DNA of 64,000 nt, from contig NW_004797971.1 in NCBI RefSeq assembly GCF_000002075.1, forward strand, positions 92,743 through 156,742. The letters are read 5' to 3'. Under the pieces are notes generated by a model. That model saw nothing but the letters and a program-made list of their open reading frames with translations. It searched no databases and was not told the origin of the DNA. A program made the position numbers and the translations under genes. Shown here in pieces: positions 5,301 through 8,300 of the stretch (position 1 is the stretch's first letter; each line of letters starts with the position of its first letter). The DNA is from Aplysia californica (Eukaryota).

Positions 5301-8300
5301 ACATAGTTGTACTGTATGATGTATTTAGTTGGAGGAATTCTTAACGAGTAGCCATGGGGTTTTAGGTTGGGTCCCTTCTTCAGTTTGTTGGGATTGCCAC
5401 CCATTATGGAAATCCTTCCAATTTTAGTATTTTTCTCCTTACCTGCCAAGTAGGCTACATCTGAGCCAAGAAATTTAATTTTTTGTCAGAGTAGTTGGCA
5501 TGTCTACTTTTCTGCTGTGTTGCTTTTTTTTTTTTAGTAAGGTAGTGTTAATTGCGACAGAGTGACGCTGTCACAACTATCGCTGTGTTGTTAATTGCGA
5601 CAGGGTGAACACGGAGCACTTTAGCGTTGATGATTAGATTTAGATCTAATATCTGCCATTTCCGCTTCTCCCAGCATGGTCCTAGTTATCTCGGCTAGTC
5701 TCAGCCTGACAATATGGAAGGCTTTCTAGAGCATCCTTTCAAATCTTACGACGAATTTGAAGATGAAAAGTTTGTTGCTTTTAGGAAAAAATCATCTGTA
5801 ACTGAAACAGTTGAGAAGGCGGATTTGAAGAGTGTGGCAAAAATCCACAGGCTTTCTGTACAGTAGAGTTGAGGCAACAAATATTTCAACGAAACAACAG
5901 CAGCTTATATCAGCAACAAAAACCACTAGGGACAACAACAACAAGAAAAGAGCTTTGACTGTCTTTTGTTTGTCTGTTAGTTAGGGGTGTATGTGTGTGT
6001 GTATAAGGCCACAAGCTGCTTCGTTTCCTTAATTTGATGATGATGTTTCACCATTGTAAGAGCAGTCGAAATTTTAAAGTGGTTTTCTTTTCCCTCACCC
6101 AGTCAGCCTCCTCGACACCCCATACCTCAGAATTTATTTATGTACATTGTTAATGCATGTAATATTCTTTTCAGAATGCTCAGTACCAACATTGGTCTGA
6201 TCTCATTAAAGCCCTAGCTGCCAGTTTCAAACTGACTGGCGAGCATCAATTTTTAAAATGCTGGATTTTGCAAAATTAGATTCCACAATGTTGGTGTATT
6301 GCTTGGTCGCGCCCATGCACTGTGGTGCAGATCTGCCAAGTACTCAATTGAACATTTTTAAAAAATTTTTTTTAATTAAAAAAAAAACAATTCCGTTTCT
6401 ACCGGTCCTGACTTCTTGAATAAAGGGAAATTTTTTGCTCTCGTGGAGTGTTTAGCAGGCGGGTGTGGTAGTTTACTGATCTAAATTATCTGAGTTTTTT
6501 CTGCTTGATATTCCTTACACAGATTTGTCGCATGGTTTGAAAAAATATGAGTGGCATGATAGGAGGGAATGTTGTCTGGGCTGCTTCATTGTGTCAAACT
6601 AAAATGATCTGATAAATCAGTGGAGTTCGGTGTGTAGTGTTTATTTTGTAACTTCTGTTGAGATTATTTACCCACCCGGGGGGGCACTGACTGATGTGTC
6701 TTTAGGCCATTCCCGAAGGGGGGACATTTCTCGTTCATGCACAGTAGAATTGTAAATGGGCTGATTCGTCAATGTATTCAATGTCAGGCTCATAACTCTG
6801 CCTGATCTACAACAGGGAAGTGTTGCTTTTTCTTTCCTAATCCTTACTATTGTATTTTCCTCTACTTCTTTTGTATTTTTGTCACACTCTTGTGACCTGC
6901 TGTTTCCGGGGTGCCTTGATAATCGAAGTAGACTTTGTGCTGTTGAAGCTAGAGAGGTGGGCACAGTAAGTCTGATTCTTTGTAGGGACTTCTCTGTTGA
7001 CACCCACCCCTTGGCGCTCCAATGACCTTATGCAGCTGCGACCGCGGTAAAACATCTACTTTTTTTTTTTATGGGATTATTGTTAGTTGATCGTGGCCAT
7101 GTGTACTTATTTTCTAAAGCTGTCTTCAGGTATGTGATGCTGATTTGATTTTCTCACCTTCGTCATAATTTTAATTTCTTTTATCAGTGATCAGGGACCA
7201 ACTCCGTTGTTTCTGATACCAGTACTTCAAATATTGAATACTTGCATTGTCTTCCACAGATCCTAAGATCAGGATTTTTGACTTGGGCAGAAAGAGGGCT
7301 CGTGTAGATGAGTTTCCACTATGCATCCACATGATTTCTGATGAGTATGAACAGCTGTCATCTGAAGCTCTTGAGGCAGGTCGTATCTGTGCCAACAAGT
7401 ACCTGGTGAAGAACTGTGGTAAAGATGCCTTCCACCTACGGGTTCGGTTACACCCATTCCACGTTAACCGAATCAACAAGATGTTGTCGTGTGCCGGTGC
7501 TGATAGGTAATTGTTTTGTTTTAGTTTTATTGCATTTGCAACACAGTAGATCATATAAATGCAGATTTCAGTTTTTGCAAAAGAAGCCTGCAAGTGGGTG
7601 GTTGGCAAGTGCTCTGGTGTGGTTTGCTCCTTCTGTCCTATCAATCATGTATGACAAAAAAAAACTGTATAAAAATATAGAATCTATTCCATGTGCTTGC
7701 CTCTATCTTGGGAGAAATAAAAGATGCTTTGTGCCTTCTAATTTCAACTTTAGAATATTATGTATGGGCATGGGTGGTTTTCTTGTCTCTTGGTTGCAAA
7801 AGTCCCTCTCTAGTTCAGTACCCATTTTTATTGAGCTCAATGGTATTATTTGTACACAGTCCTCATTGATCAATTTTGTTCCCCTTGTTAGTTTTGAAAA
7901 GACTAATAAGATGGTATCTTTTGCTTTATTTACAAGCTTGTCTGTTATCCCTGGTCACAAAATGAGGTGCTCATTAAATGCTTAGTTGCCTCATGACGTA
8001 CCTAGTACAGTGGAGTCCACTCATAACGAGTCCGGAAAAAACGAGGTCTGTTATAAAGGCACTATTCTAAAACCCAGTTTTTTTCTCCTCTTTACCTTTG
8101 TATACAAAATACTGCTATAGCGCTATCAGACACACTTGCGGGTCGGTTATAGCGGAATATTGCTGCTGCTGTGCACATGGCATAGAGGCCAATTATACAT
8201 AATGCAAAACCTCGCCAGTTGAGAAACTTGTTGCTGATCTTGTGAAACAAAGACAAGCAGAGCACATCGCGTGATAGGCCAGTGTAAGCCTAGTTTAGAT

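What the first reader, a model, noticed from the sequence alone, without database searches (positions are those of the whole stretch)
7120..7259. Box C/D kink-turn superimposed on cryptic splice sites in RPL10 intron 3: possible snoRNP-controlled splicing switch
Seen: GGTA-TGT-GATGC (7129-7140) and CTGA-TACC (7213-7220) give a correctly registered C/D kink-turn (4-bp stem, 3-nt bulge, tandem G.A, U.U, G-C). The 5' stem strand is also a near-consensus donor (CAG|GTATGT, GT at 7130). Inside lies a strong acceptor (TTAATTTCTTTTATCAG, AG 7186-7187), 72 nt upstream of the real one. Using it reads GTG ATC AGG GAC CAA CTC CGT TGT TTC TGA, and that stop is box D itself. Known: RP introns host snoRNAs, RP genes autoregulate by unproductive splicing/NMD, and SNORD86 in NOP56 controls donor choice in cis. 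Inference: a similar cis switch could couple RPL10 output to snoRNP assembly. Box C has one mismatch and I found no convincing rRNA target.
Basis: partly seen in the sequence, partly recalled or inferred. Interest (0 to 1): 0.7.

Follow-up and report, generated by a model that had tools for sequence, protein, structure and literature searches.

The report
Orphan snoRNA-like motif in RPL10 intron
An intron of a ribosomal-protein gene holds the two sequence boxes of a small nucleolar RNA lying on top of splice-site-like words; it is most likely a weak, targetless or decaying small nucleolar RNA, and a role as a splicing switch remains an untested possibility.

Summary
The described sequence is there: a correctly registered box C/D kink-turn (7129-7220) in RPL10 intron 3, the only such motif on either strand of the window; chance about 0.5-2% per gene. 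It is atypical. It has no Rfam match, no paralogue and no guide duplex to rRNA or six snRNAs. Against 11 C/D snoRNAs of the same genome it has an imperfect box C, a weaker stem, greater length and a box D only 43 nt from the acceptor. The donor at 7130 is unusually strong (1st of 461 intronic GT). The acceptor at 7187 is ordinary (27th of 392), and 'stop = box D' is built into CTGA. New points: box D is also the best branch-point word, and 7128-7131 is an AG|GT site. Contigs from four runs showed the normal junction and unspliced intron pieces but no cryptic junction; contigs cannot prove absence. No close relative was available, so conservation is untested. Verdict: likely an orphan or decaying C/D snoRNA (0.47), chance motif (0.38), SNORD86-like switch (0.10). 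The scan had not found this on other DNA.

The parts
7129..7220 (+). Candidate orphan box C/D snoRNA (kink-turn element), 92 nt including the terminal stem
   Evidence: no Rfam hit
7129..7132 (+). 5' strand of the 4-bp terminal stem (GGTA); overlaps the cryptic donor
7134..7140 (+). Box C, GTGATGC (one mismatch, last position)
   Evidence: same variant in a SNORD34-like RNA of locus L084
7187..7193 (+). Possible box C' (GTGATCA, one mismatch); no clear D' partner just upstream
   Evidence: sequence; D' candidates tested
7194..7212 (+). Position of the D-box guide; no canonical target found; two adjacent 9-mers (7197-7205, 7206-7214) pair with the ITS1 3' end and the ITS1/5.8S junction
7213..7216 (+). 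Box D (CTGA); A7216 is also the only YTRAY branch-point-like word within 70 nt of the true acceptor (43 nt upstream)
   Evidence: branch-point use inferred, not mapped
7217..7220 (+). 3' strand of the terminal stem (TACC)
7127..7135 (+). Cryptic donor CAG|GTATGT, top score of 461 intronic GT; also the best-scoring of 11 AG|GT (ratchet-like) sites; use of AG 7128-7129 as acceptor would stop at TGA 7135 in box C
7170..7187 (+). Cryptic acceptor (AG 7186-7187), rank 27 of 392; in-frame 72-nt extension ending at TGA 7214
6986..7129 (+). Hypothetical 144-nt stop-containing cassette exon: acceptor inside the upstream repeat (3.1 bits) paired with donor 7130; not seen in reads
6671..7060 (+). Interspersed repeat of about 400 nt, ending some 70 nt upstream of the element; the element is not part of it
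5223..5281 (+). RPL10 exon 3 (upstream exon)
   Evidence: junction contigs
7260..7506 (+). RPL10 exon 4 (downstream exon)

Best explanation
The element is most likely an orphan or decaying box C/D snoRNA carried as a passenger in RPL10 intron 3, and its overlap with splice-site words is likely a by-product of the box sequences rather than a switch. Shown: boxes C and D in kink-turn register with a 4-bp stem, a C'-like box 19 nt upstream of D, sense orientation in a ribosomal-protein intron. Inferred from standard C/D biology: Snu13/15.5K would bind the kink-turn, NOP56/NOP58/fibrillarin would follow, and an RNA of about 85-90 nt would be trimmed from the debranched intron. It would guide no methylation on rRNA or the six snRNAs tested. 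Yield is predicted to be low, because the stem is weak and box D lies 43 nt from the acceptor on the best branch-point word, so U2 and the snoRNP would compete for the same bases.
For: Only motif of its kind in 128 kb, chance about 0.5-2% per RPL10 intron set. C'-like box at a fitting distance. RPL10 hosts C/D-type RNAs in another marine animal: two SNORD34-like matches in L084 (E 0.0098 and 0.048, below the gathering score), one with the same box C variant and an equally weak flank stem (-3.9 against -4.3 kcal/mol). Box D contains TGA and, followed by T, a branch-point word by its own sequence; box C supplies half of the donor. The acceptor is ordinary and every well-scoring intron-3 AG gives a stop (9 of 9). 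Contigs show the normal junction in 3 of 4 runs (word depth about 25,000 in X9 and X11) and unspliced pieces bridging 7187 (X8, X9) and 7130 (X11) at depth 5-6.
Against: All 11 C/D snoRNAs found in a G000 host locus have perfect RTGATGA, span 54-68 nt from C to D (here 83) and have flank pairing of -8.6 to -18.1 kcal/mol (here -4.3); 9 of the 11 have a 13-bp Watson-Crick or 16-bp G-U-containing rRNA duplex, this one has none above 8 Watson-Crick pairs in 18S/28S. No D' box is evident. No Rfam family, no paralogue in G000, no homologue in 29 metagenome RPL10 loci (distant animals). No small RNA was shown. The passenger reading does not explain why the strongest of 461 intronic donors sits on the stem (controls score at most -0.4 bits).
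Confidence: 0.47

Rival explanations
1. Chance motif: no RNA gene; CTGAT is simply the intron's branch point and the rest is coincidence picked out by a very large scan.
For: The same pattern occurs 2 times in 663 kb of arbitrary genome, upper bound 8% per gene. It is at the weak end of every snoRNA feature measured against 11 in-genome controls. Folding z = -0.13. One donor of 6.1 bits or more is expected per 7.5 kb. Box D coincides with the only branch-point-like word near the acceptor.
Against: The single hit in the window falls sense, in a ribosomal-protein intron, near its 3' end, with a C'-like box in place; ribosomal-protein genes are typical snoRNA hosts (own knowledge; L084 is an example).
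Confidence: 0.38
2. Cis splicing switch of the SNORD86 or yeast RPL30 type. A kink-turn-binding protein (Snu13 with the C/D core, or an L7Ae-family ribosomal protein) clamps the 5' stem, hiding the donor at 7130, and box D, hiding the branch point. That would slow splicing at 7259 or push it to AG 7187 or AG 7129, both of which give premature stops (in box D and box C) and NMD, possibly leaving a snoRNA-capped polyadenylated fragment. Without protein, two hairpins (7133-7167, 7182-7218) would hide box C and box D instead.
For: Donor ranks 1 of 461 and is the best of 11 AG|GT sites; chance about 0.35% within 25 nt (post hoc). Box D on the best branch-point word. Orphan status and atypical anatomy resemble SNORD86 (PMC11028025, PMC7038934; passages). 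An alternative fold that hides both boxes is predicted. One contig of run X8 starts at 7132 and runs into exon 4; it is 151 nt, a read length, so this is only a weak hint.
Against: RPL10 is not a snoRNP component, so the feedback logic of NOP56 is missing. In SNORD86 the snoRNA lies between two donors; here the donor is at its 5' edge and no downstream donor exists. The energy gap between free fold and kink-turn fold (10.7 kcal/mol) is at the top of, but close to, the control range 5.6-10.6. Contigs showed no joint from 7129 to 7260 and no exon 3 loose end at 7130 or 7188 in 4 of 4 runs while showing the normal one; contigs drop rare variants, so this is weak.
Confidence: 0.1
3. A processing or chaperone snoRNA for the ITS1/5.8S junction: the D-side segment pairs with pre-rRNA around the 5' end of 5.8S instead of guiding methylation.
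For: Four perfect matches of 8-9 nt fall in the last 75 nt of ITS1 and the 5.8S start (L006 851-923), two of them adjacent 9-mers directly before and into box D, against none in 18S and four 8-mers in all of 28S. Precedent for a non-methylating C/D RNA in 5.8S processing: Tetrahymena TtnuCD32 (PMC6315972, abstract).
Against: Shuffle p-values were 0.034, 0.066, 0.40 and 0.046 for four settings, and 15 of 189 ordinary intron windows scored as high. The two 9-mers lie in permuted order, so they cannot form one duplex; only 7 pairs precede box D; the site is not the best duplex by energy.
Confidence: 0.05

Closest known systems
Intronic orphan box C/D snoRNAs in ribosomal-protein genes (box definitions from PMC10557570, passages)
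   Same: Boxes C and D in kink-turn register, terminal stem, C'-like box, 80-90 nt, sense in an intron, no target.
   Different: Imperfect box C, 4-bp stem, no clear D', box D 43 nt from the acceptor and on the predicted branch point; expression and conservation not shown.
SNORD86 in human NOP56 (PMC11028025 and PMC7038934, passages; primary paper not read)
   Same: Orphan C/D element next to alternative splice sites whose use would trigger NMD; two predicted folds.
   Different: SNORD86 sits between an upstream and a downstream donor of a snoRNP-protein gene, is conserved in eutherians and its NMD isoform is abundant. Here the host is RPL10, the donor is in the 5' stem, and no alternative isoform was seen.
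SNORD2 in EIF4A2 (PMC11028025, passages; PMC10324135, search listing only)
   Same: A C/D snoRNA that can interfere with its own intron's branch point.
   Different: SNORD2 pairs with downstream intron sequence; here box D itself is the branch-point word, and the only cis matches of 9 nt or more were two U-rich 11-mers in intron 2.
Yeast RPL30 pre-mRNA kink-turn (PMC13630204, passage)
   Same: A kink-turn that encloses a 5' splice site in a ribosomal-protein pre-mRNA.
   Different: There the authentic donor is enclosed and the gene's own product binds; here the donor is cryptic and RPL10 is not known to me as a kink-turn binder (recalled).
SNORD34 (Rfam RF00147)
   Same: SNORD34-like RNAs sit in the last RPL10 intron of locus L084.
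   Different: The candidate lacks the SNORD34 guide; G000 has four SNORD34 copies elsewhere, on C325.

Membership tests
Box C/D snoRNA | Box C (RUGAUGA) near the 5' end | tested here: met
   GTGATGC, one mismatch at the last base, kink-turn positions intact; 11 of 11 in-genome controls are perfect
Box C/D snoRNA | Box D (CUGA) near the 3' end in kink-turn register with a terminal stem | tested here: met
   CTGA 7213-7216, 4 Watson-Crick pairs; flank pairing weak, -4.3 kcal/mol
Box C/D snoRNA | Internal C'/D' pair | tested here: inconclusive
   C'-like GTGATCA 7187-7193; no good D' within 17 nt upstream
Box C/D snoRNA | Stable trimmed RNA bound by Snu13, NOP56, NOP58, fibrillarin | not testable with these tools
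   No small-RNA library was offered; contigs cannot show ends
Box C/D snoRNA | Conservation of boxes and stem in relatives | tested here: inconclusive
   Runs labelled as other organisms matched at 95% or more with at most one difference listed; 29 distant metagenome loci show no homologue
2'-O-methylation guide C/D snoRNA | 10 bp or more of near-perfect pairing to rRNA or snRNA with the D+5 base paired | tested here: not met
   18S, 5.8S, 28S, U1, U2, U4, U5, U6, U12 of G000; tRNA, 5S, U11, U4atac, U6atac, U3 and mRNA not tested
Known Rfam snoRNA family | Covariance-model match | tested here: not met
   No hit at gathering score or at E up to 10 over 7120-7259
SNORD13-type acetylation guide | Antisense elements to 18S helix 45 | tested here: not met
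   Only 6 pairs, a mismatch and 2 pairs near 18S 1828; criteria from PMC9226516 passages
SNORD86-type cis splicing switch | Alternative splice sites flanking the snoRNA that are actually used | tested here: inconclusive
   Sites exist in sequence; no such junction in 4 of 4 contig sets, which cannot show absence
SNORD86-type cis splicing switch | Splicing responds to snoRNP protein levels; NMD-sensitive isoform | not testable with these tools
   Needs perturbation data
SNORD86-type cis splicing switch | Host gene encodes a snoRNP core protein | tested here: not met
   Host is RPL10

The most novel reading that the evidence does not exclude
A kink-turn clamp built into the splicing signals themselves: its 5' stem is an AG|GT recursive-type donor and its box D is the intron's branch point, so binding of Snu13/C-D proteins and of U1/U2 are mutually exclusive. 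RPL10 intron 3 would then be spliced in two steps, the second releasing a 130-nt intron that is little more than the snoRNA, and excess free snoRNP protein would divert RPL10 mRNA into NMD through stops in box C or box D.
Probability: 0.1. Interest if true: 0.75.

Novelty: new member of a known kind. Interest (0 to 1): 0.27.

Why it matters
If it is only an orphan or decaying snoRNA, it adds one uncatalogued RNA in a group whose snoRNAs are little studied (my searches, listed no paper on it), which is of minor interest. If the switch is real it would be the first case known to me outside mammals of a C/D element controlling its host's splicing, in a ribosomal-protein gene, and with box D doubling as branch point; that would couple large-subunit protein supply to snoRNP assembly and is directly testable with a minigene.

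Tried and rejected
Rfam scans: nothing over the element. Paralogue searches by BLAST and by a single-sequence covariance model: only the locus itself, other hits E 6-7 without boxes. The 15-nt complement of the D guide occurs once in G000, as the locus's own minus strand. Sequencing runs: no RNA holder listed on record. Three 2026 polyA raw-read runs gave exon depth of 11 or less, no cover at 7094-7255 and no joints; conserved exon reads are filtered by the tool, so this says nothing. Runs labelled organism B and C gave no divergent sequence, so no comparative signal; the intron-holding contig of X7 was not shown, which shows that the filter hides records. A 15-pair U4 match was against the wrong strand (my orientation error); the corrected search found nothing. 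A U1 loop I pairing, a SNORD34 or SNORD57-like identity and a SNORD13-like identity were considered and dropped: short, mismatched or out of D+5 register. Two 17-of-19 BLAST matches in introns of L027 and L030 are isolated words without box structure. In one search the intron 1 acceptor was placed one base off; its score is not used. Earlier scan notes had no look-alike stretch. Supplements of the papers were not read; supplementary lists of invertebrate snoRNAs could bear on the claim that the element is uncatalogued.

Full report
Setting. The window lies in an animal genome of 927 Mb (G000); earlier unreviewed scan notes call it a sea slug, which I did not test. It holds an intact RPL10 gene: coding exons 2288-2310, 5223-5281, 7260-7506, 8990-9152 and 10142-10303 give a 218-residue protein, after an inferred non-coding first exon ending at 2136. 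Intron 3 is 5282-7259. A 400-nt interspersed repeat fills 6671-7060; the element begins about 70 nt after it and is not part of it.

Observation. The kink-turn pattern occurs once on both strands of the window. Its chance rate for the 7,506 nt of RPL10 introns is 19 and 9 of 2000 Markov shuffles and 0.023 from 2 hits in 662,944 nt of arbitrary G000 sequence (interval 0.003-0.08). With G-U pairs allowed the rates are 3-7%. The motif is therefore unusual for one gene but not for a scan of many genomes.

Is it a snoRNA? For: sense position in a ribosomal-protein intron, exact kink-turn register, and a C'-like box (7187-7193) 19 nt before box D. RPL10 can host such RNAs: locus L084 has two SNORD34-like matches in its last intron, below the gathering score, one with the same box C variant. 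Against: I took a G000 locus with four SNORD34 hits and found 11 C/D snoRNAs in 20 kb. All 11 have perfect box C, span 54-68 nt and have flank pairing of -8.6 to -18.1 kcal/mol; the candidate has 83 nt and -4.3. Nine of the 11 show a 13-bp Watson-Crick or 16-bp G-U-containing rRNA duplex. The first predicted acceptor lay 66-127 nt after box D in 6 of the 11 and none was predicted within 200 nt for 5; these acceptors are unverified; the candidate's distance is 43 nt. In humans, AQR binds about 50 nt upstream of the branch site to help intronic C/D assembly (PMC10557570, passage) and a stable terminal stem goes with expression (PMC10234308, section 4), so the geometry here is unfavourable. Rfam gives nothing; there is no paralogue.

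Targets. Using the genome's own 18S, ITS1, 5.8S, ITS2, 28S and U1, U2, U4, U5, U6, U12, no canonical guide duplex was found for box D or for eight D' candidates; the allele seen in reads at 7161 did not change the list of matches of 8 nt or more. The one curiosity is a cluster of four 8-9-nt matches at the ITS1 3' end and 5.8S start. Its shuffle p-values were 0.034-0.40 over four settings and 15 of 189 ordinary intron windows did as well, so it is a lead only.

Splice signals. With a generic matrix (recalled frequencies) the donor at 7130 is the best of 461 intronic GT and beats 4 of 5 true donors; the acceptor at 7187 is 27th of 392. A donor this strong occurs 93 times in 662,944 nt: about one per gene, 0.35% within any 25 nt. 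Half of it, though, is box C. 'Stop equals box D' needs only the right frame, and all 9 well-scoring AGs in intron 3 give stops.

Reads. Of 24 listed runs I laid 8. Three polyA raw-read runs were uninformative because exon reads are filtered; X14 gave one unspliced 390-nt contig across the element. In one search, X7, X9 and X11 showed the normal exon 3-exon 4 junction (word depth about 25,000 in X9 and X11). Intronic contigs of 151 nt at depth 5-6 bridged 7130 (X11) and 7187 (X8, X9) unspliced. No joint from 7129 to 7260 and no exon 3 loose end at 7130 or 7188 appeared in the 4 runs. Contigs drop rare variants, the filter hides some records and NMD was not blocked, so this is weak evidence against a major isoform, not proof. 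The X8 contig starts at 7132, near the expected 5' end of a trimmed snoRNA, and runs into exon 4; it is one read length and may be chance. All four runs that cover 7161 read A where the window has C; this lies outside boxes and stem.

Relatives. A metagenome scan returned 80 RPL10 loci at 82-90% protein identity; by my reading, 29 have an intron at the same position. Model and BLAST searches found no homologue (the model search covered 28 of the 29 plus L085). These are distant organisms, so conservation remains untested.

Mechanism and verdict. Most likely (0.47) a passenger orphan or decaying C/D snoRNA: kink-turn binding by Snu13, trimming from the debranched intron and low yield are all inferred, none shown. 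Chance motif 0.38; SNORD86- or RPL30-like switch 0.10; ITS1/5.8S processing RNA 0.05. These odds are my judgement from the rates above. It should not be filed as a methylation guide or as a SNORD86-type switch. SNORD86 acts between two donors of NOP56 and is conserved in eutherians (PMC7038934, PMC11028025; passages); Rpl30 binds a kink-turn on its own authentic donor (PMC13630204, passage). Literature searches for RPL10 snoRNAs in invertebrates, mollusc snoRNAs, recursive splicing with snoRNAs and RPL10 unproductive splicing (listings only) showed no title or abstract start describing this element; the top RPL10 hits concerned RPL10A, a different gene. Interest 0.27; 0.75 if the switch proved real.

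Noticed in passing
window 9655-16399 and 18935-25681; 16520-18834 and 25654-27963: Two long direct duplicates at 99.6-99.7% identity on either side of an N stretch; they include the last RPL10 exon. Probably an assembly or haplotype duplication.
   Followed up: no
G000:C325:114443-127770 (L104, L105): Cluster of at least 11 box C/D snoRNAs (four SNORD34 copies, several with a 16-bp match to 18S near 1305, others with a shared guide of uncertain target) in what looks like a non-coding host gene.
   Followed up: partly
L084:3004-3075 and 3146-3218: Two SNORD34-like snoRNAs in tandem in the last RPL10 intron of a marine-metagenome animal; the vertebrate host of SNORD34 is another ribosomal-protein gene (recalled), suggesting host switching.
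   Followed up: partly
window 7161: All four runs covering the site read A instead of C; this creates a further weak AG at 7161-7162 (-0.3 bits) and removes one pair of the hairpin that hides box C.
   Followed up: partly
window 6671-7060, 10872-11300, 20195-20577 and others: Abundant, transcribed interspersed repeat of about 400 nt with a palindromic 5' part that mimics a microRNA hairpin.
   Followed up: no
L041:2895-2965: Perfect box C and CTGA in the short orthologous intron of another animal, without a terminal stem of 4 pairs or an Rfam match.
   Followed up: partly
L097, L098, L099 (U1 genes): U1 copies differ from each other in loop I.
   Followed up: no
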